Shown in pieces: positions 43,016 to 64,000 of a stretch of DNA of 64,000 nucleotides. The position numbers and the translations under genes were made by a program. Numbering within the stretch: the stretch's first letter is position 1; each line of letters opens with the position of its first letter. The notes below the pieces were generated by a model. The model was not told where the DNA came from. It was given only the letters and a program-made list of their open reading frames with translations, and did no database searches. The DNA is from Patescibacteria group bacterium (GTDB lineage Bacteria > Patescibacteriota > JACPGU01), in contig JAKLDG010000001.1 in assembly GCA_022703645.1 (NCBI GenBank), positions 443,277-507,276 on the forward strand. The letters run 5' to 3'.

Positions 43016-45073
43016 TTATCTATTGATTACTTTCAAAGCTTTGTCCAAATTACCACTTTCTTTCATATAGATGTAAGAAGCGATAGAGATGAATGCAGCT
43101 AATAGTATCAATGCAAGAACTGTTTCAGAAGTTCCTGAGCTTGGCAAAGTTGTTACAGCTCCACCACCCAAATTGATGGTAACTAAGCTTGAAACAGATG
43201 TAATGCCATCAGCGGTACCGTTTGCAGAGTAAGTCAATTGAGAGATATTACTTGGAGTATCACTCTTCACCTTTGCAGAAAATTCATAATACCCAGTAGC
43301 ACCCACGCTTAAGTCGCCTAGACTTATACCATTTGAGAATGAGCTGTCAGCAGTAGAGGTTGTGTTACCAGATAAAACTACTTTTACTGAACCAGCAACA
43401 AACTCCATATTTTTTGGCAACGCATTTGTTAACTTAACGTTAGCAAGCTCAGCATTTCCAACGTTTGCGAAATCAACATGGAATTTGATAACATCGCCTC
43501 TGTTTGCAGAAACAACATTATTGAATCCAATTGATTTTGCAGCTGTTGAATTATATGCAGTAGCATTTACGAATAAGTTCTTTGCAGCTGTAGGTTCACC
43601 GCTTACTGTAATAATACCATTGTTATCTGATAATGAAATTCCAGAACCAATTACTTGGTTGTCAGCAGCATATGTACCAGCAGCAGTGTTACCAGAAACC
43701 TTAACTTTATAAGTTAAGTAAAACCAGTGAGCACCTGCTAAATCAGGTAATATAACACCATTACCAGCACCATTGATAGCGTCAGCTAATGGCATAACTT
43801 GGTCAGTACCTGTCGCATCTTCATAATACAATTTTGAAAATCCTGGAACGTATTCAATTCCAGCTGGCATTATAGCGCGAGCGTGAAGAATTGTAGCAGC
43901 TGAGCTACCACGGTTTGTGATAGTCATTCTGTAGATTAATTCGTCGCCTGGGTTTGCATTAACGCTTTGTGTGTAAGCTTTGTCTCCCTTTGTAAGATTA
44001 TACAAAGATGAAGCCAAAGTTACATTTGTGTTGATAGTTGTACCAACAGCAATCAAGCCATTGTTATCTGATAATGAAATTCCAGAACCAATTACTTGGT
44101 TGTCAGCAGCATATGTACCAGCAGCAGTGTTACCAGAAACCTTAACTTTATAAGTTAAGTAAAACCAGTGAGCACCTGCTAAATCAGGTAATATAACACC
44201 ATTACCAGCACCATTGATAGCGTCAGCAATTGGAATAACTTGGTCAGTACCTGTCGCATCTTCATAATACAATTTTGCAAATCCTGGAACGTATTCAATT
44301 CCAGCTGGCATTATAGCGCGAGCGTGAAGAATTGTAGCAGCTGAGCTACCACGGTTTGTGATAGTCATTCTGTAGATTAATTCGTCGCCAGCAGATGCAT
44401 TAACGCTAGGGTTATAAGCAGTCTCACCTTTTGTTAAATTGTATAGAGATGATGCAAGATATACTTGTGGTTGGCTAGTATTTGTATTGTCACCAACGCT
44501 TGAAGTAGCAGGAGTACCTGTCGTAACGCTTGCAGGTACGCTCGCGCCACCAGCAACAACTGATGCGTTATTTGCTGATAATGCAACTCCGCCATTTGCC
44601 ATTACCTGATTATCAGGGGCAAATGATCCGCTAGCAGCAGAAACAGTAGCTTTGTAAGTTACAAAAGCAGTAGTTCCAGCTGGAATGTCAATTCCAAGAG
44701 AAGTTCCTGCAGCTGAAGCGATAGCATCAGCAACTGGAGCTACTTTGTCAGCACCACTTAAATCTTTGTAATATACTTTTGAATATCCGGCAGTATATTG
44801 TAAACCGGCTGGCATAGTAACTCTTGCCATTACTCCTGTTGCAGGAGTTGCAGAACCATTAGTAATGTTCATTGCAAAAAGCACGCTATTACCATTAGCT
44901 GCATTGACAGAATTTGTCCATACCTTATTTCCAGATGTAATATTTGCTACAGCGGATGTCAAAGACAAACCGGCAGCAGATGTTGCAACTGGAGCAACAA
45001 TAGCGAAAGTCATAAGACCAATCGCTAAATAATTTATTAATTTTTTAATCATTTTTTCTCCTTTTGATAACAT
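43016..45073 (-). CDS. surface protein with DUF11-like repeat domains and LPXTG-like C-terminal sorting signal
   Basis: 685 aa. Signal peptide (probable start MIKKLINYLAIGLMTFAIVAPVATSAAG). Two near-identical ~147-aa internal repeats. C-terminus 'LPSSGTSETVLALILLAAFISIASYIYMKES' = LPxxG, hydrophobic span, charged tail. Confidence 0.7.
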   Translation of the reverse strand: MLSKGEKMIKKLINYLAIGLMTFAIVAPVATSAAGLSLTSAVANITSGNKVWTNSVNAANGNSVLFAMNITNGSATPATGVMARVTMPAGLQYTAGYSKVYYKDLSGADKVAPVADAIASAAGTSLGIDIPAGTTAFVTYKATVSAASGSFAPDNQVMANGGVALSANNASVVAGGASVPASVTTGTPATSSVGDNTNTSQPQVYLASSLYNLTKGETAYNPSVNASAGDELIYRMTITNRGSSAATILHARAIMPAGIEYVPGFAKLYYEDATGTDQVIPIADAINGAGNGVILPDLAGAHWFYLTYKVKVSGNTAAGTYAADNQVIGSGISLSDNNGLIAVGTTINTNVTLASSLYNLTKGDKAYTQSVNANPGDELIYRMTITNRGSSAATILHARAIMPAGIEYVPGFSKLYYEDATGTDQVMPLADAINGAGNGVILPDLAGAHWFYLTYKVKVSGNTAAGTYAADNQVIGSGISLSDNNGIITVSGEPTAAKNLFVNATAYNSTAAKSIGFNNVVSANRGDVIKFHVDFANVGNAELANVKLTNALPKNMEFVAGSVKVVLSGNTTSTADSSFSNGISLGDLSVGATGYYEFSAKVKSDTPSNISQLTYSANGTADGITSVSSLVTINLGGGAVTTLPSSGTSETVLALILLAAFISIASYIYMKESGNLDKALKVINR
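43617..44498. repeat. tandem duplication (2 x 441 bp) within the surface-protein gene
   Basis: 43617-44057 and 44058-44498 are nearly identical over ~330 bp (e.g. CCATTGTTATCTGATAATGAAATTCCAGAACCAATTACTTGG...GTTAAGTAAAACCAGTGAGCACCTGCTAAATCAGG), diverging towards the 3' ends. Period 441 = 147 codons, in frame. Confidence 0.85.
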
Positions 45074-45551: not shown

Positions 45552-47060
45552 TCAGAAGAGAGAAGAGTTGCTCTCCGCGGCCGGAGGAGGAGGCGGAGGC
45601 GGAGGAACTACCCCCACCGACGCCACATTCGAAATATTGGTCTTGCCTGAATCCTCAAAACCAGAAGTCTTCACTGCCGACGTCGGATTGGATCGCGGAG
45701 AAGGTTCCGGCCATGCGTTCGCGCCGATAACTGAGGTACTGGTGCCTGCGCCACCGGTCGTACCGGGAGCGGGCTGCCAGTCAGAATCCCATACTTGAGA
45801 ATTCGGAACGTCAGGGGTTATACCCGAGACGTTCGTGGTATCCGCAACATTTCCGCATTTCTCGCAATACTGTCCGGCACCGCCATTGCCGTTTCCTGGT
45901 GTCGGATTCGGGTTCGGATTCGATGCGGGAGGAGGTGGAGGGACAGGCCGATTCTTACCGAAAACATTATCCTGAATCTTCTTCGGCATAATATTTACTG
46001 TGGCATCCCAGAGTAAATAGTCGAAGAAAAGTCCGGCTGGGTTAAGCACGCACTTGCGTCCGTGCATCGACTTCTTGAGGCTCATGTCGCACAGAGGCTT
46101 GTCGATGTACATATCTCCGAGCGTCCCCATGGTTGCGCCGATAATAGTATCTCTTTTGTTCTTCTTCGGCTTGGCCGCGAGCGAGTTGCAGTAGGAGCCA
46201 AGACTTTTGTACCATGTGTTGTTCGGGTCGAGCTCGATGAGTCTGCCGATCATCTTACAAAGAGCGTTCCAGTCACCAGCGTTATATAACGCCCGCGCCT
46301 GATTGTCCAGATCGTTTGCAGTATTGCCTGCGGAGGCTTTTTTCTTCTTGCCCGCTGGCGGTACTGAACCAACTGTCGGTTTCGTGTTCGTCGCGAAGCT
46401 GGGGCTGGTCACGATCTTGTGAATATCGTTGACCTGTTTCCCGGTTTTGATGATCACTGGTTTAGTTTCCCGCACGATCTTGACGGTTTCAGCGGTATCT
46501 TTCTTGATGTCCTTGATACCGGATTTGATTTCCTTGTGGTCGGCTTTGTTTTCGCGCAGTGCGTCGAAAACATTTGGGACATCTTCGCTGGGTACACCAA
46601 GTTTGTCGTCTACGACTTCAATGCCGAACTCGGTCAAGGCGGTATAGACGCACGTCAGATGTTCAATGTCCTTACCCTCTTTCGAAATGCAAGGGTCTAC
46701 GATACGCGCCTTATAATCATTGGGGCAATTAGCAATCATTTTCCTGATCATGTCCGGCTTTGCCTTCTGGGCTACCAGACGCTGAGCGACCTTACCCCCA
46801 GGGGCACAGACCATCGTACATGTTTGCACGAGGCCCTTGTCCACAAGCTCCTCGCATTTAATGATATTCCCCTTGGGAACGACATCCTTTAGGAGTTTGC
46901 TGGCATCTTTCGCTGTCCCCGTGCCGGCGTCCTTTGTGACGACGGTCGGGTTCTTCGATACCTTCTGTGTCTTGGCGCATCCGCCGGCAAAAACCGCTCC
47001 GGCGAGAATCGCAATCATCAGAATCATCGGTAGCAATGCTACCTTGCGCAACCTCTTCAT
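45552..47060 (-). CDS. secreted lipoprotein, hypothetical (GC-rich, Pro/Gly-rich C-terminal half)
   Basis: 502 aa. Lipobox-like 'LAGAVFAGGC'. C-terminal 'PPPPPPAAESNSSLF' and 'PVPPPPPASNPNPNPTPGNGNGGAG'. Strong SD (AGGAGG 9 nt before the ATG). GC far above the window average. Confidence 0.7.
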   Translation of the reverse strand: MKRLRKVALLPMILMIAILAGAVFAGGCAKTQKVSKNPTVVTKDAGTGTAKDASKLLKDVVPKGNIIKCEELVDKGLVQTCTMVCAPGGKVAQRLVAQKAKPDMIRKMIANCPNDYKARIVDPCISKEGKDIEHLTCVYTALTEFGIEVVDDKLGVPSEDVPNVFDALRENKADHKEIKSGIKDIKKDTAETVKIVRETKPVIIKTGKQVNDIHKIVTSPSFATNTKPTVGSVPPAGKKKKASAGNTANDLDNQARALYNAGDWNALCKMIGRLIELDPNNTWYKSLGSYCNSLAAKPKKNKRDTIIGATMGTLGDMYIDKPLCDMSLKKSMHGRKCVLNPAGLFFDYLLWDATVNIMPKKIQDNVFGKNRPVPPPPPASNPNPNPTPGNGNGGAGQYCEKCGNVADTTNVSGITPDVPNSQVWDSDWQPAPGTTGGAGTSTSVIGANAWPEPSPRSNPTSAVKTSGFEDSGKTNISNVASVGVVPPPPPPPPAAESNSSLF

Positions 47061-53038: not shown

Positions 53039-53446
53039 TTATTTTCTTGCTTGGTTGTCCAAAGCTTCATTTACCAGCTCATCGGCGAGTTTGTTTTTTT
53101 CTCTGGGAATGTGATGATAACTGACTTTTTTGAAATCGCCTTCGGCTTTTTTAACTTTTGCAAAAAGTTCTTTCAATTCTTCGTTTTTTACTTTATATTC
53201 CCCTCTTAATTGTTTCACAACCAATTCACTGTCAAGATTGCATTTTAATTCTTTTATACCCATTTTTGCTGCCACTTGCAATCCACCAAGAATTGCTCGG
53301 TATTCAGCTTGATTATTGGTCAGTGTGTCTCCGAGATATTTACCTTTTGCGAATATCACTTCACCGTCTTTTTTCAAAATAATTCCGACCGCGCCCGGTC
53401 CGGGATTACCGCGCGCTCCCCCATCTGTATATAATTCGTAATTCAT
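53039..53446 (-). CDS. rnhA: ribonuclease HI
   Basis: 135 aa. 'LYTDGGARGNPGPGAVG' (DxG), 'TNNQAEYRAILGGL' (E), 'DSELVVKQL' (D), 'HHIPREKNKLADELVNEA' (H...D). Confidence 0.88.
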   Translation of the reverse strand: MNYELYTDGGARGNPGPGAVGIILKKDGEVIFAKGKYLGDTLTNNQAEYRAILGGLQVAAKMGIKELKCNLDSELVVKQLRGEYKVKNEELKELFAKVKKAEGDFKKVSYHHIPREKNKLADELVNEALDNQARK

Positions 53447-53468: not shown

Positions 53469-54077
53469 CTAATAATTTCTTGGGCTAACTGACGTAGTCA
53501 ATGTTACAACTGTTGGATTCCTTTTATCAGTACTTTGCGACTTGATAGTTATGTTTAATTTTGGAGGTATCAAAAGTAAAGGATCTGGCGCCGGATTTGT
53601 GGTAATTTCAGGAGTAAATTCATTTATTTTTATATCTGCAGGGTTGTTTAAAATGACCGCTGCGCCACTTGCCCAACCGCTTGTTGCGCCAATGTCTTTT
53701 GTGGAAGTGATTATTTGAAGGTTATTTCCACCTGTCGGTATAAAATATTCGTTTTTTGTAACCTTTCCTGCCAAAACGTCAGTATTTACTATGACAAGTC
53801 TTCCGCTATCAACCTTATAAGCAACACTGACCCTCTCTCCGGCAGAATTTAGTTCACCATTGGCGTTCCTCGCCTCTCTCGTAATTGTTTCAAGAATATA
53901 GCGTGTATTTTCCTGAGTCTGTCTTAGCACGGAAACCTTCTGATCTTGTCTAATAATATCGACCAAAGAAGAAGCGCCAAAAGTAATAAAAACCGCAAAG
54001 ATAGAAACAGCAACAAGAAGCTCTATCAGAGTAAAGCCACTTTCTTTTTGTCTTTTATTATTCTTTGTTTTTTTCAT
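53469..54077 (-). CDS. prepilin-type minor pilin / pseudopilin
   Basis: Leader then 'GFTLIELLVAVSIFAV' class-III signal (cleavage after G, Glu at +5). Confidence 0.75.
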   Translation of the reverse strand: MKKTKNNKRQKESGFTLIELLVAVSIFAVFITFGASSLVDIIRQDQKVSVLRQTQENTRYILETITREARNANGELNSAGERVSVAYKVDSGRLVIVNTDVLAGKVTKNEYFIPTGGNNLQIITSTKDIGATSGWASGAAVILNNPADIKINEFTPEITTNPAPDPLLLIPPKLNITIKSQSTDKRNPTVVTLTTSVSPRNY

Positions 54078-54174
54078 TCTAAAAGTTTATAATTTCTAAA
54101 TTATAAATTATAATTTCTAATTTGAGACTTTGACATTTTATTAGATATTATAATTTAGATATTAGACATTTCCT

Positions 54175-54687
54175 CTAATATTTGCTTTTCCAATCCGTCA
54201 AATATGTTTCCCCTTTCAGTTCCCCATCTTTGTTCCGATCCTTCCATGTAACTATAATAGTAAATTTTTTCTTTAAACCATCTTTTGGAGTTGGAGTTGA
54301 TGCGCCATTAATATAAAGCGGCACTTGCTGAATTGGAGTTATCGTGATCGTAGTAGTAAAATCTTTATTATTAATTCTATCTTTCTTCCCATCTTTGTAT
54401 GATGAAGAAGTTAACCACGCGTCATCCAGATTTGTGTCCCAATTCAAACCATTTGCAATATTTGTATCTCTCACATTATGCAGCTCTTCAATCGTTCTTT
54501 GTACAAGATTATAAGCAGCAGTTTTGCTTTGAGCGTTTTCCCACGTTTGAAAAGTTTGTTGCGCTAAGAAAGTCACAAAAGTAAGGATAAGAATCATTAT
54601 CCCAATACTAACAATTACTTCAACTAACCCAAACCCTGATTGCTTTGAGGAAATAACAGAAAATTGTTTTTTATTTGATATTTTCAT
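54175..54687 (-). CDS. prepilin-type minor pilin (divergent N-terminus GFGLVEV)
   Basis: 'KQSGFGLVEVIVSIGIMILIL' hydrophobic alpha1 segment with Glu at +5. Confidence 0.65.
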   Translation of the reverse strand: MKISNKKQFSVISSKQSGFGLVEVIVSIGIMILILTFVTFLAQQTFQTWENAQSKTAAYNLVQRTIEELHNVRDTNIANGLNWDTNLDDAWLTSSSYKDGKKDRINNKDFTTTITITPIQQVPLYINGASTPTPKDGLKKKFTIIVTWKDRNKDGELKGETYLTDWKSKY

Positions 54688-54689
54688 TT

Positions 54690-55253
54690 CTATGGTATTG
54701 TTGCTAAGGATAATGATATACTATTCGCGGCTTTATTTATATTTACGTTATAAGTATAATTCAAACCTTCTGTTGTTGAATAAACCTGAATATCGATACT
54801 ATTTTTTGCCAGCTCTGTTCCGTTATTATTATAAAACCTTACCAAACCGGAAGTACGGTTATCCCCCACTAAATACGTAATCGTAGCAGAGGTATCCAAA
54901 CCATCCGCCTTAATGTTTTTGATGCATACATTGCTCTTAAGAATTACAGTTTTTAAAGTTTGTGTTGTACTGTCGTTATGTATTTCAGATAAGTTAATCG
55001 TCTGCCCGCAAGTACCTGCGTTTGGCAGTATGATTTTATATTCTGTAGTATTCGCGCTTGATGGCGCCAATGCACGGCTTTGCGCCTCCCATAGCAGAGA
55101 TCTTAATTCTTTTGCGGCGTTTTTTACCTCATTCCTTCTTTGCTGCTGCCGATAGTTAGGGACTGCCATCAAAAAAAGTAAACCCATAATTGAAATAACA
55201 ACTAACAATTCAATTAAAGTGAAGCCTGTTTGTTTTTTGTTTATATTTTTCAT
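54690..55253 (-). CDS. prepilin-type minor pilin
   Basis: 'KKQTGFTLIELLVVISIMGLL'; start moved to the internal Met to remove the overlap with pilD. Confidence 0.75.
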   Translation of the reverse strand: MKNINKKQTGFTLIELLVVISIMGLLFLMAVPNYRQQQRRNEVKNAAKELRSLLWEAQSRALAPSSANTTEYKIILPNAGTCGQTINLSEIHNDSTTQTLKTVILKSNVCIKNIKADGLDTSATITYLVGDNRTSGLVRFYNNNGTELAKNSIDIQVYSTTEGLNYTYNVNINKAANSISLSLATIP

Positions 55254-55258
55254 ATTTA

Positions 55259-56056
55259 TTATCCGCCCAAATACCAATTCACTATATATTTTCCAATAAA
55301 TAAAGCCAATAAAGCGCCAATCACCAAAAATGGTCCAAATGGCACTATGTCTTTGCGCGTTTTTTTCTTTGCTGCTATTAAAATTATACTAACAATACTG
55401 CCAATAGTAAATGAGAAAAATAGTGAAACTAAGATCAATGGATAACCGAGAATAATGCCAATTAATAAACCTAATTTCACATCCCCCCAGCCCATTCCTT
55501 TTTCTTTTGTTGCCAATACCAATATCAAGAATAGCCCCCCACCAATGACAGGCCCTAACAAAATATTGAGAACCTCTGGCTTAAAAATAAAAAAATCCAG
55601 GTGAAAGATTATGTTTATAACCGCTAATACAGCAGATACTACGATAGCCGGTATGACAACTTTATCGGGAATGATATAGTGAAAAATATCAAAGAAAAAA
55701 ACTACGACAAAAATCATGATGACTAAAAGATAAAAGGCAAAAAATAGATAAAGATTTGCGCCGATCAGAACGTCCGCAAAACGAATGTAGAGTAAAGCAA
55801 ATAATAGACCTGTAACCAGCTCCACAAAAGGATAAAATATGCTGATTTTTTCTTTACAATGACGACACTTCCCTTTCAGAACGACAAAAGAAAGCAGCGG
55901 TACCAGCTCATAAGATCTCAATTTATTCTGACACTTCGGACATTTACTTCTGCCAAATATAATAGTCTCGTCTGTTTCCAAACGCGATATAACGACAGAA
56001 AGAAAACTGCCAATCATCAAGCCAAAAACAAAAAATATCAGGGTATTTAATATCAT
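55259..56056 (-). CDS. pilD: prepilin peptidase (A24 family)
   Basis: 265 aa. Multi-pass membrane protein; Cys4 cluster 'CPKCQNKL...CRHCKEKI'; catalytic Asp-containing loops. Confidence 0.85.
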   Translation of the reverse strand: MILNTLIFFVFGLMIGSFLSVVISRLETDETIIFGRSKCPKCQNKLRSYELVPLLSFVVLKGKCRHCKEKISIFYPFVELVTGLLFALLYIRFADVLIGANLYLFFAFYLLVIMIFVVVFFFDIFHYIIPDKVVIPAIVVSAVLAVINIIFHLDFFIFKPEVLNILLGPVIGGGLFLILVLATKEKGMGWGDVKLGLLIGIILGYPLILVSLFFSFTIGSIVSIILIAAKKKTRKDIVPFGPFLVIGALLALFIGKYIVNWYLGG

Positions 56057-56150
56057 GATTTAATTATAATCATTCTATAACAATTCACAAGACATTATAA
56101 AAGCCCGCTTGTTTCCAAGCGGGCTTTTGAATTTAACTTATCAACAAATA

Positions 56151-56606
56151 TTATGAACAGGTTCCTGTATTTGCTGCTTTAACCGGAGTAGAATTATTCC
56201 AATTTTGGTTATCAATACACCATGTACCTCCACCTTTCATTCCTGTAACACTTACTGCCCATTTCTGACCTATAGCGTCAGTCGTACACACTATCGTTCC
56301 TGAACCCGATAGATTTTTCTGAATATTATCACGAATTGTTATAACCGTTGGATCCATGAACATGCTGCCGGCAGCAGTACAACTAGATATTGCAACCGTT
56401 CCATTACCATTATAATTTCCATTTGTATCATAGAATATTTCAGATTGCGCTCTCAGACTATCAAGCCCAGCCCTTACAGCCGAATCAGCTGCTTTGGTTC
56501 TAGCTGAATTTAGTGATGCTAAAGCTATCAATGTTAATAAACCAATGATCGCAATCACCACCAAAAGTTCTATCAATGTAAAACCCCTTTCTCTTTTGTT
56601 CATCAT
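56151..56606 (-). CDS. pilA: type IV major pilin
   Basis: 151 aa. 'RGFTLIELLVVIAIIGLLTLIALASLNSAR' canonical T4a pilin N-terminus; two C-terminal Cys pairs. Confidence 0.85.
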   Translation of the reverse strand: MMNKRERGFTLIELLVVIAIIGLLTLIALASLNSARTKAADSAVRAGLDSLRAQSEIFYDTNGNYNGNGTVAISSCTAAGSMFMDPTVITIRDNIQKNLSGSGTIVCTTDAIGQKWAVSVTGMKGGGTWCIDNQNWNNSTPVKAANTGTCS

Positions 56607-56694
56607 GATTTCTCCTTGTAAAATTAATTAATAATTATTTATATTATAGGCTCATTCATTTATAACTCAAGAGGATTATTTTCCTCAATTAATT

Positions 56695-57909
56695 TTAATA
56701 AACACTTGATAATTGATATATCGGCATTATGATTGCTAAGACTAAGAAAAGTACCGCAACACCTACTATTAACATAATTATTGGTTCAAGCAATGCTGAG
56801 ATTCCTTTTAGAAGATTATTTGTATCTTGCTCATACATTCGAGAAACGTCAGAAAGTATTTTATCAAGCTGCCCTGTCTGCTCGCCCACCGCAATCATTG
56901 ACGATACTAAAGTTGGGAAAATCTTACTTTTCATCATCGGAGTTGATAGTGGTATTCCTTTTTCGACCTCCAAGACCATATGCTTTAATTCTTTTTCAAC
57001 AATTGAATTTCCCAGCGAATCGCTAACCATAGATAGAGATTTGATGATCGGCACTCCTCCGCTAACAAGTAGCGACAGTGTTTTGGAAAAATTTGTTATG
57101 TAAATTCCCCTGTTAATGGTTTTGAAAACTGGCATATTTAGCGCAAGAAAAGCCACCACGTCTTTCCCGGTACTTGTAGCGGAAAGATATTTTATCAAAA
57201 CCCCAAGCCCGATAAGCAATACTATCAATATATACCAATAATTGACCATGAAATTACTTAGACCTATCATTATTTTTGTTAAAAAAGGAAGTTGCGCACC
57301 AGAACTGGTAAAAATATCCTGCAACTGTGGAATAATATACACTAACGCCAAAATTCCAACAGCCGCTACTACTCCAAGAATGAAGGCGGGATAAATCATT
57401 GCTCCTCTGAGTTTTGATTTCATTGCGTAGCTGCTTTCGAGCTGATCAGCCAGATCGAGTAACACTTTGTCGAGCTTACCGCTTGCTTCACCGGATTTAA
57501 CCATATTTATAAAAATCTGTGAAAAAACATCGGGAAATTGAGAAAGAGCAAAAGAAAAGCTCTTGCCATTTTCTATCAAGCCAATAAGCTTAATGATTAT
57601 CTCTGATAATTTTTTGTTTGGGGTTTGTTTGGTGAGATATTTAAGAGAGTCCATTAGGGGCATACCTGCATTAATCATCGTTGAGAGCTGACGTGCAAAA
57701 ATTGCTTTGTCTTTTGCCTTGATCCCACCGAAAAGACCAGAAGCATAAGAAACCACCCTCGCCTCAAACGAAAGAAATGGCTTTATCGTAATAACCGCAA
57801 GCTTATTGTATTTCAGGACATCTTCAGCTGATTCGATACTGTCAGCCTCAATAATGCCTTTTACAATCTTGCCAGCTTGATCCCGCGCTTCGTAAATGAA
57901 TTTATCCAT
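56695..57909 (-). CDS. pilC: type IV pilus assembly platform protein PilC (GspF family)
   Basis: 404 aa; duplicated GspF domains, three TM segments. Confidence 0.88.
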   Translation of the reverse strand: MDKFIYEARDQAGKIVKGIIEADSIESAEDVLKYNKLAVITIKPFLSFEARVVSYASGLFGGIKAKDKAIFARQLSTMINAGMPLMDSLKYLTKQTPNKKLSEIIIKLIGLIENGKSFSFALSQFPDVFSQIFINMVKSGEASGKLDKVLLDLADQLESSYAMKSKLRGAMIYPAFILGVVAAVGILALVYIIPQLQDIFTSSGAQLPFLTKIMIGLSNFMVNYWYILIVLLIGLGVLIKYLSATSTGKDVVAFLALNMPVFKTINRGIYITNFSKTLSLLVSGGVPIIKSLSMVSDSLGNSIVEKELKHMVLEVEKGIPLSTPMMKSKIFPTLVSSMIAVGEQTGQLDKILSDVSRMYEQDTNNLLKGISALLEPIIMLIVGVAVLFLVLAIIMPIYQLSSVY

Positions 57910-57946
57910 TTTGATTTCTTGTTTTTTTGCTTTATTGCTTAATTGT

Positions 57947-59779
57947 TTATAGTGTCGTTACTCTATATACTTCTTCCATAGTTGTCATACCCTTCAAAAC
58001 CTTTATAATACCGTCTTGTTTCATTGTGATCATACCTTCTTTCAAACCTTGATTCAATATATCTGTAGCAGATGCACGCGCGATACAAAGTCTTTGAATT
58101 TCCTCGCTTACCCGCAATAGCTCATAGACACCAAATCTACCTTTGTATCCCCCGCCACCGCAATTGGCACAGCCAACACTTTCATACATTTTTTTATCTT
58201 CTATTTTTAATTCCAATCCTTGTCTATAATGTTCTGGAATTTTATCGTATTCTTCCTTCATATCGTCATAAACCGCTGCGGGAATCTCTACCAGCTTTTT
58301 ACAATCAGGACAAAGCTTACGCACAAGTCTCTGGCCGACTATTGTATGAAGTGATGAGGCAATTAAGAATGGTTCCACTCCCATATCTATGAGACGTGGA
58401 ATTGCCCCAGCAGCATCATTAGTGTGCAATGTTGAAAAAACCAAGTGACCCGTAAGAGCCGATTGAATCGCCATTTCTGCAGTTTCACGATCGCGGATTT
58501 CTCCAACCATTATTATATTTGGATCTTGACGCAGAATTGATCGCAGTCCATTGGCAAAGGTATAACCAATATATGGCTTTACCTGAGATTGATTCACTCC
58601 CACCATCTGATACTCTACAGGATCTTCTAGTGTTACAATATTCACACCTTCTTTATTTATTCGCGAAATTGCCGCATAAAGAGTTGTTGATTTACCGCTA
58701 CCAGTAGGTCCGGTAACGAGCAATATCCCATGTGGAATTTGAATTGCTTCCAAGAAATTATCATAAGATTTACCAGTTAACCCCAGGTCTTCAATCGTTA
58801 TTAATCCTCCTGATTTATCGAGAATTCTCATTACAACTTTTTCGCCGTTAATAGTTGGGAAAGTTGAAATTCTTAAGTCGATTTCTTTTTTACCAAAAAC
58901 AACATCGATACGGCCATCCTGCGGGACACGTTGTTCATCAATTTTTAATTTTGCCAAAATTTTGATGCGCGAAACCAGCGCTGCATGATCTTTTCTGGCA
59001 ATAGTAGCAACTTGGTTTAAAATTCCGTCAATTCTATATCGTATTCTTGTATCCGCGCCTTCCAAAGGCTCGATATGAATATCGGACGCTTTGATAGCAA
59101 CACCATACTTTATTAATGCTGCCACTATACGTGGAACTGCAGAATTTTTAATTATTTCTTCTAATTGTTCTTTTGTTTTGAGGTCTTCTTTTACTAATTC
59201 AGCGATGCGCGAAAAATCAACTTCATCAGTAGCTTTTTCTTCAGGTTTTTTTTCTATTTTTTTCAATATACCTGAGGCTAAATCTGCCTTTGGTGCTGTT
59301 TCCATCCCAGTTTCTTTTTCTACCATTATCGGACTCTTATACTGTTCAATAATTTCATTTAATCCTTTGACACTAACTATATATGGCTCAATATTTAGAT
59401 GATTGCCTTTGCTAATAAAATCAAGCGCTTTTTTGGTTACTGGATCCCAAGGACGTGCTAAACCGACCTTCAGAGTTTGATCATCGGTAATTTCAAATAC
59501 AACCATATTGTATTTTATCGCTACATCTTCTGGAAATTTTGATAAAACCACAAAAGGAACTTTTTTCCCAGAAAGCGAAGCGTAAGGTAGCCCATAAACC
59601 TCGCCTATTGCTTTTACCATATCTTCTTCACGGCCAATCCCTAATGAAAAAATAGCATCTTCCAAATATGCTTTGTTTTCACCTGCGATTTGTTGGGCTT
59701 TTGTAATGTCGCTGGGCGTTACTATCCCCTTTGAAATTAAAACATCAGAGACATTTTGTGTTAAAGATTGATTTGCCAT
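57947..59779 (-). CDS. pilB: type IV pilus assembly ATPase PilB (GspE family)
   Basis: 610 aa. N-terminal GSPII_E_N domains; 'LVTGPTGSGKSTTLYA' Walker A; Asp/His boxes; tetracysteine 'CPDCKK...CANCGG'. Confidence 0.9.
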   Translation of the reverse strand: MANQSLTQNVSDVLISKGIVTPSDITKAQQIAGENKAYLEDAIFSLGIGREEDMVKAIGEVYGLPYASLSGKKVPFVVLSKFPEDVAIKYNMVVFEITDDQTLKVGLARPWDPVTKKALDFISKGNHLNIEPYIVSVKGLNEIIEQYKSPIMVEKETGMETAPKADLASGILKKIEKKPEEKATDEVDFSRIAELVKEDLKTKEQLEEIIKNSAVPRIVAALIKYGVAIKASDIHIEPLEGADTRIRYRIDGILNQVATIARKDHAALVSRIKILAKLKIDEQRVPQDGRIDVVFGKKEIDLRISTFPTINGEKVVMRILDKSGGLITIEDLGLTGKSYDNFLEAIQIPHGILLVTGPTGSGKSTTLYAAISRINKEGVNIVTLEDPVEYQMVGVNQSQVKPYIGYTFANGLRSILRQDPNIIMVGEIRDRETAEMAIQSALTGHLVFSTLHTNDAAGAIPRLIDMGVEPFLIASSLHTIVGQRLVRKLCPDCKKLVEIPAAVYDDMKEEYDKIPEHYRQGLELKIEDKKMYESVGCANCGGGGYKGRFGVYELLRVSEEIQRLCIARASATDILNQGLKEGMITMKQDGIIKVLKGMTTMEEVYRVTTL

Positions 59780-59785
59780 ATTTGA

Positions 59786-60046
59786 TTAAAAATTATATGG
59801 ATTTGATTTGCCCAGTTCATTTGGATCAACATTGATCGGCAACGATTCCGGTCTATTCAAAGCATTAATTTCGCTTTCTAAAGTTGGATTTTCTATCTGT
59901 GGTATAGAAACTATGGGTCGTGTTTTTAGATCCTTGGAACTCGGAATTGTTGTATAGTAAATATACCCGACAAATACAAGCGCTAAAGCATTTAGCGCTA
60001 TTCCTATAATTACTATCAAGTCTGTTTTCTTTTTTATATTTTCCAT
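59786..60046 (-). CDS. small single-pass membrane protein within the pilus operon
   Basis: 86 aa. TM 'LIVIIGIALNALALVFVGYIYY'; start is 7 nt after the stop of the PilO-like gene region. Confidence 0.5.
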   Translation of the reverse strand: MENIKKKTDLIVIIGIALNALALVFVGYIYYTTIPSSKDLKTRPIVSIPQIENPTLESEINALNRPESLPINVDPNELGKSNPYNF

Positions 60047-60071
60047 TGTATTTTATTAAATTATTTTTTTG

Positions 60072-60101
60072 AAAATTGCAAAATTGAAAATTGAAAATTT
60101 A
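60072..60101. repeat. (GAAAATT)4 heptamer array
   Basis: GAAAATTGCAAAATTGAAAATTGAAAATTT between the PilO-like gene and the small membrane protein gene. Confidence 0.7.
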
Positions 60102-60102
60102 T

Positions 60103-60717
60103 TTATTGATAGTATATATATCCGCTGATATTAAACCGCAATACTTCAGATGCTCCAGCTTTGATATTGCCGCCTCCCTTGATAGAAATATTAGATATAT
60201 TTACCGGACGTATATTTACCTCTAACTTCTTCAGAAACTCTTTTAGGTTCGGATAACTGCCAGTAATATCAATCTGCAATGCAACTCTTTTATAATCTGT
60301 TTTTACTACACCTGTTTGACCAGGGATAGGAGTGTCATCAACTATTTTTGGAGTGAAGTTATTTATAAAAAGATTATTATCGGTAGCCAATTTTGAAATC
60401 ATCAGCAATGCTTCAGCAATTTGCGGATCCTGCGGCAGCACCTCTTTTGTTTGATTAATAAAAACTTGTTTCTCTTTTATTGTCTTCTCAAGATTTTGTA
60501 ATTTTGTTTGTTTTTCCTGTAAAACAGACTTATCAATGCTCAAATTTTCAAGCTCTAACCTATTCGCACGATATGCCGATGCAACAGGCATCAAAAAGAA
60601 GTAAACTGCAACAAAAGCAACAATCGCAGCCAAAAGAACCATGACTGGTATTTTTTCCTCTTCTTTTATCTTGATGCTTGTTGAAAAGAAAGATTTCTTT
60701 TTATTTTGTTGTTCCAT
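60103..60717 (-). CDS. PilO-like type IV pilus assembly protein
   Basis: 204 aa. Short cytoplasmic N-terminus, one TM, coiled-coil, then a ~100-aa periplasmic-type domain. Confidence 0.55.
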   Translation of the reverse strand: MEQQNKKKSFFSTSIKIKEEEKIPVMVLLAAIVAFVAVYFFLMPVASAYRANRLELENLSIDKSVLQEKQTKLQNLEKTIKEKQVFINQTKEVLPQDPQIAEALLMISKLATDNNLFINNFTPKIVDDTPIPGQTGVVKTDYKRVALQIDITGSYPNLKEFLKKLEVNIRPVNISNISIKGGGNIKAGASEVLRFNISGYIYYQ

Positions 60718-60788
60718 TTTTTATATTCTTAAAGATATTTTATTTGCATTAAATAACTATTCAACCTACTGCGCTACAAACCTCTCTC

Positions 60789-61595
60789 CTATAATACTGG
60801 CAGAGAACTCCCACTTTCCGGGGTAGTTGTTGGAGCAGGCGTAGGTTCCGGTGTTGGAGTGGTTTCAGGAACTGGAGAAACTTCCGTATTAGTTGTTGGA
60901 TTTTCAGCTGGTGTAGTTTCATTTACGACTGGCGTACTCTCCTCTACCGTAGGTTGTGTAATTGCTGGAGCTGCCGGATAGAGCGCCTGATGACTGATTT
61001 TTTTTGCAACTCCAAAATTAATAACAAAATCAACATATTTATTATTATTTAATGTAACCAAAGAAGCATTAGACAGCGAAACATTCGCAAAAACATTTTT
61101 TGATTGATCCGAACTTTCTTCGTCTTTCATTTGCTGCATTGCGACAACCAAAGTGGACAATGTCGGGTAGTCAGGACTTAGTCCCGCAATCTTCATTGAT
61201 GAAGGAGAATCGGCTTCAAAACCGGAAAAAGTAATACCGGTTGGGACTACTTTTTCAAGTTCATCAAAAACAAAAGACCAATTTGGGTTGTTATTTAGTA
61301 TTATTGCGACGCTATTATTTCTTTTTTCAATTTCTTTTCCCACGCTTTCCACGCTTAACATCCCCTGATTCACGCTCGTTAGTTGCGCAATTTCTTTTTG
61401 CGCCTGTACAACTTGTTTCTTATTCATATTTGAAAAAATCAGAAACGAAAACGCAGCAATAATAAAAATAGTCAAAAAAACTATAGAAAAAATCATAACA
61501 TTTTTCCTTTGCTTTTTTGACTCTTCATTCTCAATAAAACGCGCCGTTGGCTCGCCTATTTCGCTAGCTATTTTAGATACGTCAATGTCTATCAT
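60789..61595 (-). CDS. PilN-like type IV pilus assembly protein with Pro/Thr-rich C-terminal tail
   Basis: 268 aa. Cytoplasmic N-terminus, TM 'MIFSIVFLTIFIIAAFSFLIF', coiled-coil, C-terminal 'PVPETTPTPEPTPAPTTTPE'. Confidence 0.5.
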   Translation of the reverse strand: MIDIDVSKIASEIGEPTARFIENEESKKQRKNVMIFSIVFLTIFIIAAFSFLIFSNMNKKQVVQAQKEIAQLTSVNQGMLSVESVGKEIEKRNNSVAIILNNNPNWSFVFDELEKVVPTGITFSGFEADSPSSMKIAGLSPDYPTLSTLVVAMQQMKDEESSDQSKNVFANVSLSNASLVTLNNNKYVDFVINFGVAKKISHQALYPAAPAITQPTVEESTPVVNETTPAENPTTNTEVSPVPETTPTPEPTPAPTTTPESGSSLPVL

Positions 61596-61655
61596 TTGTT
61601 TTTGTTTATTTATAAATATTTTATAACATGTAGAAATTAATGCAATACTAAAATT

Positions 61656-63209
61656 TTATCCACCAAACATATTCGCGCTAAACCCAGGCGGCGGATTAAA
61701 TAACAATCTTACATCATATTGGAATTGTTCTGCCGGCTGTTTTATCAGATTTCCATTGATATCATAAATACCAAGATAGTTTCGTAGAAGTGTAAATCCT
61801 CTAGCTATAACTGCCCCTTTGATAACCAAAGTATCCTGATCGCCAGCTGGATCGCTTTCAGTTATAAACTTTCCGAGATTAAGATGCGTTGTATCTGAAT
61901 AGATATAGAATACCGCATCAACTTCTTTTACGTTGCTGCTGATAGTAACATTCCCATTTCTCACGATAACTCCTAACATACTATTTGAATTAGCATAGGT
62001 CAAATCTCCAGAAATAGTAACGTCCCCATCAACCAATATCGTATGTCTTCCTGAAATAGTTTCCGATGAAGAAATATTCAATCCATCCTGATACCACCAA
62101 ACTTTTCCTTCTGGAGGAGCGCTCGGATCGCTTGTAAAGTTGTTTGAAATAAATGATGATGATAAAGATTTTATCGCATCAAGAGAATTCGCTTCTGCAA
62201 CCTTTTCTAATTTTGAAATATTATTTTTCATTATCTTGCAGGCAGACCCCGGTACGCAGCCATCCAGGTCTAAATCAGAACCGCTTCCGGGCAATATTTC
62301 ATAACCTTTGATCTTCCAGTCATTCTCACTTGAGTTCGCTGGCGCGATACCTCCTCCTGCTGCAATAATATACTTCGCATTATATACCCCTTTAGTTGGA
62401 TCAGCTGAACGAAGGTTTAGATCGCCTTTCGCATAAATCGTACCGCCAATATTCTCTTGCCCGAAAGCATTAACGATAACATTTAAATCAGAAGCGCTAT
62501 CCTGACTCCCGTTTACTGAAATCTCAACATCATTTTCAACCACATCTGTTTCCAATAAACCCTCGCCATAGCTTGCCGTTACTTTTAAAAAATAATGCAC
62601 GCCAACCAAACTGTCGGGAAGAATATAGGTAAATTTGCGATTTGCTTCAGTATAAGTAGGAGCAATATTGTTGCATATACTTTGATCTGAATTACAATAT
62701 TGGACATTTGTAATACTTAAATTTGAATTTTGCACTTGATTGTTTTTTACATAAATACTGTCCGATATTGTTGCGCCTGAGTAAATGGTGCTGGTGTTAT
62801 TTACATAAAATTCAACATCATAAGTAGTGCTGCTCCTCGGAGCAACATATTCTTTATGATCAGTTTTGGAAATATGCGGTTCGGCTGCAGTGCCGATTGC
62901 CAGAATTTCTGCCGCCGATCGGTACCAATTAATTCCATTTTGCGAAATCTCTGCAACGCCTTTCAAAAGTTGAAGATTTGATAGAGTCCTCTTCGCTGAA
63001 GGAGTAAAAAGTAAAGTTTCAGCCGTAGTAATTGGCAGAGCTTTAAGATTGGAGCTCATATTATCATCTGATTGAGCTAACGCCTTTGAAGAAAAAGCCA
63101 ATATTAAAATCGCAAAAAAAGCCAACATTAAAATCGCAAAAAAAGCCAACATTAAAATCGCAACTGGTTTATTCTGTAAAAAAATAGTTTTTTTACATTT
63201 TCTTGGCAT
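61656..63209 (-). CDS. large extracellular hypothetical protein at the head of the pilus operon
   Basis: 517 aa. N-terminal hydrophobic region carrying a 3 x 8-aa tandem repeat (MLAFFAIL); Asn/Ser/Thr-rich beta-rich body. Confidence 0.65.
   Translation of the reverse strand: MPRKCKKTIFLQNKPVAILMLAFFAILMLAFFAILILAFSSKALAQSDDNMSSNLKALPITTAETLLFTPSAKRTLSNLQLLKGVAEISQNGINWYRSAAEILAIGTAAEPHISKTDHKEYVAPRSSTTYDVEFYVNNTSTIYSGATISDSIYVKNNQVQNSNLSITNVQYCNSDQSICNNIAPTYTEANRKFTYILPDSLVGVHYFLKVTASYGEGLLETDVVENDVEISVNGSQDSASDLNVIVNAFGQENIGGTIYAKGDLNLRSADPTKGVYNAKYIIAAGGGIAPANSSENDWKIKGYEILPGSGSDLDLDGCVPGSACKIMKNNISKLEKVAEANSLDAIKSLSSSFISNNFTSDPSAPPEGKVWWYQDGLNISSSETISGRHTILVDGDVTISGDLTYANSNSMLGVIVRNGNVTISSNVKEVDAVFYIYSDTTHLNLGKFITESDPAGDQDTLVIKGAVIARGFTLLRNYLGIYDINGNLIKQPAEQFQYDVRLLFNPPPGFSANMFGG
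63092..63173. repeat. 24-bp x 3 perfect tandem repeat inside the signal-peptide coding region
   Basis: AAAAAAAGCCAACATTAAAATCGC repeated three times (first copy with one substitution). Confidence 0.85.
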
Positions 63210-63313
63210 ATATTTATTTAAATATTTATAAAAAAGATATTATTAGCCACACTGGTAATCCGTGATTTTAATAATCTGTTTAAAAATTAAAAAATACAAA
63301 ATAAAAAATTTTT

Positions 63314-64000
63314 CTACGGTACTACCGGTGGCGTTACTTTGAATACCACATCATACTCGCCTGGTTTGGCTGTATAATTTGACCAATAAAGTGTTTCGTA
63401 ATTAGTAGTTGTATTAATATGACTTCCCGTGATTCCGTCCGGATTTGGTGCGCCGCTAACCATAGAATTGAAGGCAAATCCCGGCGGCAAACTAAATTTT
63501 AGTTTAACTATCTTTTCAATACTGCTCATATTCGAAACTTTCAAAGTATATGTAATCGCATTAGTATTTATGGGTGTTGTAGTTGTTGAAGCACTCGCAT
63601 CCCCTACTGTTGATGACGGACCTTGCGCTGAAAGATAGACCAGAACTCCAGTCAGACCGTAATCATTATTTACAATGGAAGGTGGCGCAACAGGACAATC
63701 GGATGGACAAGTTGTTGAATTTTCACCGGGATCACAAACCCCATTCCCGCAGGTCGATGTTGGTATTTCCGTTTGAATTATTATTAAATTAGAACCATCC
63801 TGCGAACCGGCGCCACCAGAACTACCGCCTAAAGACCCATCATAATTTGGAGCGCCTGTAACATCCATTATTTGTGAAGGTAATACATTATTAATATTAT
63901 TACCGCTTGCATCAATAAAATTTTGGGTTTTGATAGCGATTCTTCCACCCCCGCCACCACTGCCATTATATGCTACATTCGCACAAGACCCATTCGAGAG
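63314..64000 (-). CDS. secreted hypothetical protein, 5'-partial (reading frame runs off the window end)
   Basis: The frame stays open from 63868 up to 64000 (…GGGGRIAIKTQNFIDASGNNINN…). Gly/Ser/Thr-rich with a Cys-rich 'CGNGVCDPGENSTTCPSDCP' module. Confidence 0.55.
   Translation of the reverse strand, partial: LSNGSCANVAYNGSGGGGGRIAIKTQNFIDASGNNINNVLPSQIMDVTGAPNYDGSLGGSSGGAGSQDGSNLIIIQTEIPTSTCGNGVCDPGENSTTCPSDCPVAPPSIVNNDYGLTGVLVYLSAQGPSSTVGDASASTTTTPINTNAITYTLKVSNMSSIEKIVKLKFSLPPGFAFNSMVSGAPNPDGITGSHINTTTNYETLYWSNYTAKPGEYDVVFKVTPPVVP

What the first reader, a model, noticed from the sequence alone, without database searches (positions are those of the whole stretch)
53469..64000. Type IV pilus locus headed by two large extracellular proteins, one with a 24-bp x 3 repeat in its signal peptide
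The contiguous minus-strand order is a partial secreted protein (63314-end), a 517-aa extracellular protein, a PilN-like gene, a PilO-like gene, an 86-aa membrane protein, pilB, pilC, pilA, pilD, three minor pilins and rnhA. No pilM, pilT or secretin is in the window. That fits a Gram-positive/CPR-type pilus, though those genes may lie elsewhere. The 517-aa protein has a perfect 24-bp tandem triplication in its signal-peptide region (MLAFFAIL x3), a likely slippage hotspot. The two large Asn/Ser/Thr-rich proteins could be pilus-associated adhesins or tip proteins. Together with dprA 25 kb away, this fits a DNA-uptake or attachment apparatus.
Basis: partly seen in the sequence, partly recalled or inferred. 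Interest (0 to 1): 0.5.

Follow-up and report, generated by a model that had tools for sequence, protein, structure and literature searches.

The report
Patescibacterial pilus operon with solenoid accessory protein
This is a type IV pilus gene cluster from a probable ultra-small (CPR/Patescibacteria) bacterium, and its 517-aa lead protein belongs to a large unnamed family that sits at the head of such operons and has the fold of known pilus-tip proteins, so it is a plausible attachment or DNA-binding tip factor.

Summary
The 24-bp x 3 repeat is real but not perfect (71/72 bases; peptide AILMLAFF-AILMLAFF-AILILAFS). A second public assembly is identical over 21.5 kb except for exactly one missing repeat unit, so copy number varies between assemblies (3 vs 2).

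My best reading is a secreted, pilus-associated tip or adhesin protein, a stand-alone variant of the ComZ/PilX solenoid.

The window's clade lacks pilM in the locus, and its PilN has lost the INLLP motif. The window locus also lacks pilT. The 529-aa neighbour remains unassigned. Interest is moderate.

The parts
63314..64000 (-). C-terminal 228 aa of a 529-aa protein with an N-terminal hydrophobic segment. It has Gly-rich GGxI-type repeats and a C-terminal DUF11-like domain. No family is assigned.
   Evidence: Translation. Full length from L001. No Pfam, NCBIfam or PDB sequence hit. Its C-terminal domain is 26% identical over 144 aa to the 480-aa protein of the same cluster.
61656..63209 (-). 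X, a 517-aa secreted protein. It is the founding member here of an unnamed family that heads patescibacterial T4P operons.
   Evidence: 855 clusters; synteny; fold.
63072..63209 (-). Sec-type signal peptide of X (residues 1-46). It has a basic n-region (RKCKK), a hydrophobic core and an ALA|QS cleavage motif. It has no prepilin G-F-x-x-x-E motif.
   Evidence: Read directly from the sequence. Relatives have comparable N-termini.
63092..63163 (.). 24-bp tandem repeat, 3.0 copies, 71/72 identical. It is in frame and encodes the hydrophobic core of the signal peptide. The ENA assembly has 2 copies.
   Evidence: TRF. Comparison of L001 with L005. P0001 is 509 aa.
62475..62972 (-). Ig-like beta-sandwich domain of X (residues ~80-245), resembling Gram-positive adhesin and sortase-pilin domains.
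61659..62465 (-). Conserved C-terminal domain of X (residues ~249-517). It comprises the FxQExxGGxIY motif, a Cys pair, a long alpha-helix, a three-strand-per-turn beta-solenoid and a terminal PAExFxYDxR...PPPGF motif.
60789..61595 (-). PilN variant. Its cytoplasmic N-terminus is IDIDVSKIxxEIGEPTAR instead of INLLP. It has a Pro/Thr-rich tail ending in LPVL.
   Evidence: PF05137, 30.7 bits. Alignment of seven PilN sequences.
60103..60717 (-). PilO
   Evidence: PF04350, 36 bits. Also similar to GspM.
59786..60046 (-). 86-aa single-pass membrane protein with a conserved C-terminal VDPNELGKxNPY motif. It lies between pilO and pilB in seven of the loci.
   Evidence: No family hit.
57947..59779 (-). 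PilB-type assembly ATPase with an MshEN N-domain
   Evidence: T2SSE 3.4e-129. TIGR02538 528 bits.
56695..57909 (-). PilC platform protein
   Evidence: T2SSF 4.8e-59, two stretches.
56151..56606 (-). Major pilin candidate (151 aa, leader MMNKRERG|FTLIELLVV)
   Evidence: N_methyl 3e-10. It has a promoter-like site upstream and a strong hairpin downstream.
56098..56129 (.). 14-bp-stem GC-rich hairpin between pilA and pilD, a terminator- or attenuator-like element.
55259..56056 (-). PilD prepilin peptidase
   Evidence: A24_N_bact 2.7e-33 and Peptidase_A24.
54690..55253 (-). Minor pilin (187 aa from the likely start; KKQTG|FTLIELLVV)
   Evidence: N_methyl 6.5e-9 and GspH-like N-terminus. Gene call in L001.
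54175..54687 (-). Minor pilin (170 aa; SKQSG|FGLVEVIVS)
   Evidence: N_methyl 20.8 bits, just under the cut-off. Matches the N-termini of ComGE and PilV.
53469..54077 (-). Minor pilin (202 aa; QKESG|FTLIELLVA)
   Evidence: N_methyl 3.4e-8 and TIGR02532.

Best explanation
The region is the downstream two-thirds of a ~20-kb surface-structure gene cluster from a probable Patescibacteria (CPR) bacterium. It encodes a monoderm-type type IVa-like pilus. The parts present are the PilB motor, PilC platform, PilN/PilO alignment pair, a small conserved membrane protein, a major pilin with its own promoter-like site and hairpin, the PilD peptidase and three minor pilins.

The 517-aa protein X is exported by the Sec pathway. 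This is inferred from a basic n-region, a hydrophobic core and an ALA|QS site. X consists of an adhesin-type Ig sandwich followed by an ice-binding-protein/ComZ-type triangular beta-solenoid, which ends in a conserved acidic/basic PAExFxYDxR...PPPGF tail.

The solenoid domain is the conserved part of the family, and the N-terminal domains vary (Ig, PKD, GW-repeat and others). The gene sits directly before pilM or pilN in very divergent genomes. I therefore infer that the solenoid is the module that docks X onto the pilus, most likely onto the minor-pilin tip complex, as is proposed for the solenoids of ComZ and cyanobacterial PilX. The variable N-terminal part would then be the ligand-binding or adhesive part.

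The 24-bp repeat is an in-frame duplication-prone tract. It lengthens the hydrophobic core of the signal peptide by 8 residues per copy, most likely through replication slippage.

What is shown: gene content, family size, synteny, the predicted fold and the copy-number difference. What is inferred: Sec export, tip location, adhesive function and any consequence of repeat number.
For: - Pilus machinery.
- Family size: 855 clusters share the C-terminal domain, 19 of them the full module.
- Synteny of full-module relatives: X-like genes lie directly upstream of pilN-pilO-small gene-pilB in the window, L002, L003, L006, L007 and L008, at 31-40% identity.
- Synteny of distant relatives: they lie directly upstream of pilM-N-O-small gene-pilB in L009, L010 and the P0155 locus.
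- Model: pLDDT 71, with the solenoid blocks at 81-96.
- Literature: ComZ is proposed to be a tip-located DNA-binding pilin whose solenoid is closest to ice-binding proteins (PMC6561018). Cyanobacterial PilX carry the same solenoid, which is proposed to act as a tip plug in place of PilY1 (bioRxiv 10.64898/2026.02.12.705559). Saccharibacterial T4P loci also carry large accessory proteins without PilD signals that are proposed to be tip adhesins (PMC11623550).
- Ig domain: matches MSCRAMM and sortase-pilin adhesin domains.
- Repeat: 3 versus 2 copies in otherwise identical 21.5-kb sequences.
Against: - X has no pilin fold and no prepilin leader, so it cannot enter the filament the way ComZ or PilX do.
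- No interaction with any pilin was tested, because no multimer prediction was available.
- X sits at the machinery end of the operon, about 6 kb from the minor pilins.
- The solenoid fold is also common in non-pilus adhesins and ice-binding proteins, so fold alone does not place X on a pilus.
- The model has two low-confidence stretches (residues 45-77 and 253-312 of the protein), and the second covers a conserved motif.
- One weak relative (P0157, E 3e-8) is not next to pilus genes.
- The two assemblies that differ in repeat number may come from the same sample, since their contigs are 78,708 and 78,720 bp long. One allele could therefore be an assembler's choice between co-existing variants, or an error.
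Confidence: 0.55

Rival explanations
1. X is a general cell-surface adhesin or wall protein. It is co-transcribed with the pilus genes, together with the upstream PKD, Flg_new_2 and TPR proteins, as part of an 'attachment regulon', but it is not physically part of the pilus.
For: X has a Sec-type signal peptide and no pilin features. Its Ig domain resembles wall-anchored adhesins. The cluster upstream encodes several other surface proteins with PKD, Flg_new_2, TSP1 and DUF11-like domains. The ice-binding-protein fold is widespread in adhesins unrelated to pili. One weak relative lies outside a pilus locus.
Against: The gene keeps the same immediate position before pilM or pilN in nine loci, even where only the C-terminal domain is conserved at 23-33% identity. 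The other upstream surface proteins vary far more between loci. No wall-anchoring motif (LPXTG, SLH, LysM) was detected by Pfam.
Confidence: 0.25
2. X is an extracytoplasmic part of the assembly machine rather than of the filament. For example, it could be a wall-spanning collar or alignment partner docking on PilN/PilO, filling the role that PilP/PilQ have in diderms.
For: X occupies the operon slot next to the alignment genes rather than next to the minor pilins. In the pilM-less clade both X (which gains an extra conserved N-module) and PilN (new N-terminus, PT-rich tail, terminal LPVL) carry clade-specific features, which could reflect co-evolution.
Against: The N-terminal domains of the wider family are highly variable and adhesin-like, which is unusual for a core machine part. 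The fold matches tip proteins and adhesins, not PilP or secretin domains. No oligomerisation evidence was obtained.
Confidence: 0.12
3. The repeat-number difference is not biological. It is an artefact of assembling a 72-bp tandem array, and the signal peptide has a single true length.
For: The two contigs are otherwise identical over 21.5 kb and of nearly the same length, so they may be two assemblies of the same reads. Only one contig carries the 2-copy form, against six with the 3-copy form.
Against: A 72-bp array is shorter than typical reads and shorter than the k=141 used for the ENA contig (record name k141_273520), so both alleles can be assembled without collapse. The deletion is exactly one unit and in frame. 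The 2-copy hydrophobic stretch (18 aa) falls in the middle of the range seen in relatives (13-24 aa), whereas the 3-copy form (26 aa) is the longest of the 20 N-termini compared.
Confidence: 0.25

Closest known systems
ComZ of Thermus thermophilus (PDB 6qvi), a competence pilin proposed to sit at the pilus tip
   Different: In ComZ the solenoid is inserted into a GspK-like pilin fold with an N-terminal hydrophobic helix, and ComZ binds PilA2 and DNA. X has no pilin domain. It has a Sec-type signal peptide with an AxA site, an extra Ig domain, and the solenoid at the extreme C-terminus. There is no significant sequence similarity.
Cyanobacterial PilX minor pilins with a beta-solenoid (including HpsA-like proteins), proposed tip plugs
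   Same: They have the same ice-binding-like solenoid and the same proposed role as a substitute for PilY1 (bioRxiv 10.64898/2026.02.12.705559).
   Different: They are true pilins, with the solenoid between the last two strands of the pilin fold. X is a separate secreted protein. No direct comparison was run.
PilY1/PilC tip adhesins of diderm T4aP
   Same: The layout is the same: Sec signal peptide, variable N-terminal adhesive part and a conserved C-terminal domain. Both are non-pilin proteins encoded with pilus genes.
   Different: The C-terminal domain of PilY1 is a beta-propeller and that of X is a solenoid. X has no Pfam hit to the PilC/PilY1 family. PilY1 is encoded within the minor-pilin operon.
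PilX1/PilX2 of Nanosynbacter lyticus TM7x (Saccharibacteria)
   Same: They are large accessory proteins in patescibacterial T4P loci without a predicted PilD signal, proposed to be tip adhesins (PMC11623550).
   Different: They are reported to have a pilin-like lollipop core plus a jelly-roll domain (PilX1) or a seven-bladed propeller (PilX2), not a solenoid. Both TM7x machinery loci contain pilM.
Ice-binding proteins (DUF3494 fold) and Pfam DUF7305
   Different: X and its 13 closest full-length relatives hit neither Pfam model, even at E<=5. There is no reason to expect ice binding.

Membership tests
Type IVa-like pilus system (monoderm/CPR layout) | PilB-type assembly ATPase, PilC platform protein and PilD prepilin peptidase | tested here: met
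   T2SSE 3e-129 plus MshEN, T2SSF 5e-59, and A24_N_bact plus Peptidase_A24. TIGR02538 528 bits.
Type IVa-like pilus system (monoderm/CPR layout) | Pilins with a class III leader (G|F-x-x-x-E) | tested here: met
   Four genes have N_methyl or TIGR02532 matches and a visible G|F(T/G)L(I/V)E motif.
Type IVa-like pilus system (monoderm/CPR layout) | PilN and PilO alignment proteins | tested here: met
   PF05137 30.7 bits (cut-off 22.8). PF04350 36 bits (cut-off 22).
Type IVa-like pilus system (monoderm/CPR layout) | PilM actin-like ATPase, and the INLLP motif at the PilN N-terminus that binds it | tested here: not met
   There is no PilM_2 domain in any scanned ORF of the window or in the 10 kb upstream. 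PilN starts MIDIDVSKIASEIGEPTAR. The PilN of a pilM-containing relative starts MTIQLNLLPD. pilM elsewhere in the genome is not excluded.
Type IVa-like pilus system (monoderm/CPR layout) | PilT retraction ATPase | tested here: not met
   tblastn with PilB finds no second T2SSE gene in 64 kb. A second T2SSE gene, PilT-sized at 354-359 aa, follows pilB in L002, L007 and L010, directly before pilC; in L009 it follows a response-regulator gene and the next gene was not annotated.
PilY1/PilC tip adhesin family | C-terminal PilY1/PilC beta-propeller domain | tested here: not met
ComZ / solenoid-PilX type tip pilins | Triangular ice-binding-like beta-solenoid | tested here: met
ComZ / solenoid-PilX type tip pilins | Solenoid embedded in a pilin fold with an N-terminal pilin helix | tested here: not met
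   The N-terminus is a Sec-type signal peptide with an ALA|QS site. No pilin domain appears in the model, and the solenoid is C-terminal.
ComZ / solenoid-PilX type tip pilins | Binding to a partner minor pilin and location at the pilus tip | not testable with these tools
No multimer tool was available.
Pfam DUF7305 (PF23981) | Score above the gathering threshold (27 bits) | tested here: not met
   X and 13 close relatives give no hit at E<=5. The link is only transitive, through 6 of 66 distant relatives.
Contingency (phase-variable) repeat loci | Repeat copy number varies between otherwise identical genomes | tested here: met
   3 versus 2 copies with 0 mismatches in 21.5 kb. Whether the two assemblies are independent is unknown.
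Contingency (phase-variable) repeat loci | Copy-number change switches expression or function (typically by frameshift) | tested here: not met
   The unit is 24 bp, so changes stay in frame. A functional effect through signal-peptide length was not tested.

The most novel reading that the evidence does not exclude
X may be a 'split' version of the solenoid tip pilin. In this reading the ComZ/PilX-type plug domain is made as a separate Sec-secreted protein and attaches in trans to the minor-pilin tip complex through its conserved C-terminal strand and PPPGF tail.

In this pilM-less clade the in-frame 24-bp repeat might then act as a tuning switch. An 18-residue hydrophobic core would give a cleaved, released tip protein. 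A 26-residue core would behave as a membrane anchor and keep X at the cell surface. Copy number would thereby change how much X reaches the pilus.
Probability: 0.1. Interest if true: 0.7.

Novelty: new variant of a known kind. Interest (0 to 1): 0.5.

Why it matters
All cultivated Patescibacteria live attached to other microbes, and their type IV pili are implicated in host binding, twitching and survival (PMC11623550). The proteins that give those pili their specificity are mostly unknown.

This analysis defines a large family (at least 855 clusters at 50% identity) that has essentially no Pfam coverage. It consistently heads the pilus operon, and it combines a variable adhesin-like front with a conserved solenoid of the kind found in known or proposed pilus-tip proteins. 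That makes it a concrete candidate for the host- or DNA-recognition module of CPR pili, and it gives a domain boundary and motifs that can be tested.

The analysis also flags a clade whose pilus locus has no pilM and whose PilN has lost the PilM-binding motif. This raises the question of how the motor is coupled to the alignment proteins in that clade.

Tried and rejected
- Word-indexed homology searches with X alone, with a 4-sequence alignment and with a 27-sequence alignment found only 4, 3 and 14 proteins. The full HMMER scan was needed to find the family.
- The first AlphaFold run, with 4 sequences, was too poor to use (pLDDT 50).
- Searches against PDB sequences with X-family profiles and with the 529-aa protein gave nothing significant. 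The best hit, the T4 gp5 needle at E 0.03, reflects a generic beta-helix repeat pattern.
- The afdb50 fold library was not available.
- I first considered that X replaces PilM, because it occupies the slot before pilN. I rejected this because X is extracytoplasmic, and because distant relatives sit upstream of a normal pilM.
- I considered that the hydrophobic N-terminus of X is a non-canonical pilin helix. I rejected this as the primary reading because X and several relatives have AxA-type cleavage motifs after the hydrophobic core and none of the N-termini read has a Gly/Glu+5 motif.
- No paralogue of X exists in the window or in the 10 kb upstream.
- No paper mentions DUF7305.
- No tRNA gene lies in the window that might mark an island.
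- Base composition is uniform across the locus, so there is no sign of recent horizontal acquisition.

Full report
**1. What is in the sequence**

Profile searches confirm the assignments.
- PilB: T2SSE 3e-129 with an MshEN N-domain.
- PilC: T2SSF, two stretches.
- PilD: A24_N_bact plus Peptidase_A24.
- A 151-aa pilin and three further pilins, each with a visible G|F(T/G)L(I/V)E leader.
- PilN: PF05137, 30.7 bits against a cut-off of 22.8.
- PilO: PF04350, 36 bits against a cut-off of 22.
- RNase H follows at 53039-53446.

The pilin gene has a promoter-like site upstream and a 14-bp-stem hairpin downstream at 56098-56129. Both fit a highly expressed major pilin.

No second T2SSE ATPase exists in the 64 kb. 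No PilM or secretin domain was found in any scanned ORF, and every minus-strand ORF of 247 aa or more was scanned. dprA is at 29403-30536, but it is separated from the locus by unrelated housekeeping genes.

**2. The repeat**

Tandem Repeats Finder reports 63092-63163 with period 24, 3.0 copies and 97% matches. The array is two perfect units plus a third with one G>A change, so it is not perfect. The peptide is AILMLAFF-AILMLAFF-AILILAFS. It forms the hydrophobic core of an N-terminus that reads as a Sec signal peptide: MPRKCKK... followed by the hydrophobic core and then SSKALA|QS.

The same protein, one 8-residue unit shorter, exists in another public assembly (P0001, 509 aa). At the DNA level the two loci are identical over 21,554 bp apart from one 24-bp gap at the repeat.

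The uncharged N-terminal stretch is 26 residues in the 3-copy form and 18 in the 2-copy form. It is 13-24 residues in 18 relatives. The window's allele is therefore unusually long.

There is a caveat. The two contigs are 78,708 and 78,720 bp long and may be two assemblies of one sample. The difference shows that two alleles were assembled, not yet that they segregate between populations.

**3. The locus extends beyond the window**

The public contig carrying the identical sequence (L001) shows that the partial ORF at 63314-64000 is the end of a 529-aa protein. Seven more same-strand genes lie upstream:
- a coiled-coil protein;
- a 480-aa protein whose C-terminal domain is related to that of the 529-aa protein (26% over 144 aa);
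- a Flg_new_2/TSP1 protein;
- two TPR proteins;
- a 734-aa PKD/Flg_new_2 protein;
- a 186-aa protein.

A divergently oriented YkuD transpeptidase gene closes the cluster. No pilM or pilT lies there.

**4. The 517-aa protein X is a member of a large unnamed family**

X hits no Pfam or NCBIfam model and no PDB sequence. Word-indexed searches found only three relatives, at 31-54% identity, plus the 509-aa allele. These relatives share a ~470-aa module that starts right after the signal peptide of X and follows extra N-terminal domains in the others.

A full HMMER scan of 1.84 billion representative proteins with that module found 855 clusters at E<=1e-3. Nineteen of them (E<1e-30) match most or all of the module; the best fifteen span it end to end. 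The rest share only profile positions ~200-485. That region always lies at the extreme C-terminus of proteins of 180-1800 aa and ends in the motif PAExFxYDxR...PPPGF.

The N-terminal parts of the distant relatives differ: GW-type repeats, DUF11, Laminin_G_3 and others. Six of 66 hit Pfam DUF7305, with a best E-value of 1.2e-8. No paper mentions DUF7305.

**5. Synteny**

Full-module relatives sit directly upstream of pilN-pilO-small membrane gene wherever downstream sequence is available, and pilB follows wherever the contig continues. This holds in L002, L003, L006 (a MAG labelled Patescibacteria group), L007 (a MAG labelled Saccharibacteria, with a PDDEXK_3 gene inserted) and L008.

Distant relatives that share only the C-terminal domain sit directly upstream of pilM-pilN-pilO-small gene-pilB in L010 and the P0155 locus; in L010 pilT-pilC-pilin-pilD follow. 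In L009 the relative sits directly upstream of pilM, three further genes, pilB, a response-regulator gene and a second T2SSE gene.

One weak hit (P0157) is not near pilus genes, and one (P0158) is uninformative. That gives 9 of 11 informative loci. TPR and PKD/Flg_new_2 genes recur upstream in several of them.

X is therefore not a substitute for PilM. It is a conserved first gene of these operons.

**6. Fold**

A second AlphaFold run with a 27-sequence alignment gave pLDDT 71.4 and pTM 0.62.
- Residues ~80-245 of the protein form a confident beta-sandwich.
- Residues 253-312 are poorly modelled.
- A 17-residue helix follows, and then a regular three-short-strands-per-turn beta-solenoid with block pLDDT of 81-96.

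ComZ is a competence pilin proposed to sit at the pilus tip. Its solenoid is closest to an ice-binding protein, and ComZ binds PilA2 and DNA (PMC6561018). Cyanobacterial PilX minor pilins carry the same solenoid, which is proposed to plug the tip in place of PilY1 (bioRxiv 10.64898/2026.02.12.705559).

**7. Interpretation**

The layout of X parallels PilY1: a Sec signal peptide, a variable adhesive front and a conserved C-terminal domain. The fold of the conserved domain parallels ComZ and PilX.

X is not a member of either family. It has no propeller, no pilin fold and no prepilin leader.

The most economical reading is a secreted accessory protein that associates with the pilus, probably at the tip with the minor pilins, and presents an adhesive or ligand-binding domain. 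Tip location, partner and ligand are inferences.

There are two rivals. X could be an independent surface adhesin that is merely co-regulated with the pilus, or it could be an extracytoplasmic part of the assembly machine. Neither is excluded.

Large accessory proteins without PilD signals are also proposed as tip adhesins in TM7x, but with different folds (PMC11623550).

**8. A pilM-less clade**

All six loci with the full X module lack pilM between X and pilN. Their PilN proteins share the N-terminus (M)IDIDVSKIxxEIGEPTAR. Five of the six share a Pro/Thr-rich tail ending in GLPVL or SLPVL.

By contrast, the PilN of a pilM-containing relative begins MTIQLNLLPD. That is the canonical PilM-binding motif, which I take from established knowledge of PilM-PilN complexes.

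TM7x has pilM in both of its machinery loci, and pilM is reported as widely conserved in Patescibacteria (PMC11623550).

pilT follows pilB in L002, L007, L009 and L010, but it is absent from the window locus. Whether pilM and pilT lie elsewhere in this genome cannot be determined from the window.

**9. The 529-aa neighbour**

It has an N-terminal hydrophobic segment, Gly-rich GGxI-type repeats and a DUF11-like C-terminal domain. It matches no Pfam, NCBIfam or PDB sequence. Only a relative of its C-terminal domain was seen in one other locus (L006). Its link to the pilus rests on adjacency alone.

**10. Verdict**

The locus itself is an ordinary kind of system. The added value is threefold:
- a large, essentially unannotated, operon-leading solenoid protein family in Patescibacteria;
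- a pilM-less variant with a re-modelled PilN;
- an in-frame repeat polymorphism in a signal peptide.

Interest is moderate.

Noticed in passing
window 60789-61595; L002 5175-5897; L003 2830-3615; L006 12018-12800; L007 12052-12699; L008 12378-13172: The PilN proteins of the pilM-less loci share a conserved cytoplasmic N-terminus, IDIDVSKIxxEIGEPTAR, in place of INLLP. Five of the six also share a Pro/Thr-rich C-terminal tail ending in G/S-LPVL. This may be a docking peptide for an unknown partner.
   Followed up: partly
window 59786-60046 and the equivalent gene in L002, L003, L006, L007, L008 and L010: A 75-92-aa single-pass membrane protein always lies between pilO and pilB. The six pilM-less loci share a C-terminal VDPNE(L/I)GKxNPY motif; the L010 copy keeps the size and position but not the motif. 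It has no family assignment and is possibly a new conserved machine component.
   Followed up: partly
window 57909-57947 compared with L002 8672-9736, L007 16540-17619 and L010 16810-17886: A PilT-sized T2SSE gene (PilT-like ATPase) lies between pilB and pilC in three relatives. In the window, pilB is followed directly by pilC, and no PilT-like gene exists in the 64 kb.
   Followed up: yes
window 56098-56129: A 14-bp-stem GC-rich palindrome with T/A runs on both sides lies between the major pilin gene and pilD. A promoter-like site lies upstream of the pilin at 56643-56670. This is a likely pilin-specific expression unit inside the operon.
   Followed up: no
L001 1-10000 (upstream of the window end): The cluster continues upstream with a coiled-coil protein, a 480-aa protein with a DUF11-like domain, a Flg_new_2/TSP1 protein, two membrane-anchored TPR proteins, a 734-aa PKD/Flg_new_2 protein and a 186-aa Cys-rich protein. 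TPR and PKD genes recur upstream of X in L002, L007, L008 and L010.
   Followed up: partly
L007 11567-11923; L003 34-432: Small PDDEXK_3 nuclease-family genes sit next to the X homologue. One lies between X and pilN in L007 and one just upstream of X in L003, where it overlaps the X start. They look like inserted selfish or defence-type genes.
   Followed up: no
window 5201-8191 (-): A 996-aa protein with TrwB/VirD4-type coupling-protein and TraG-D_C domains, which hints at a conjugative or type IV secretion-related element elsewhere in the window.
   Followed up: no
window 43016-45073 (-), 45552-47060 (-), 23326-26061 (-): These are further large proteins. One is a 685-aa DUF11/DUF7927/NPCBM_assoc protein. 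The other two, of 502 aa and 911 aa, have no Pfam hit at all.
   Followed up: no
window 53039-53070: The RNase H gene overlaps by 32 bp the longest ORF (146 aa) of the downstream gene. The ENA gene call starts that gene later (123 aa), so the overlap may come from choosing the longest ORF.
   Followed up: no
window 1-64000: ARAGORN finds no tRNA gene in 64 kb. Nearly all genes lie on the minus strand, with steadily negative GC skew.
   Followed up: no
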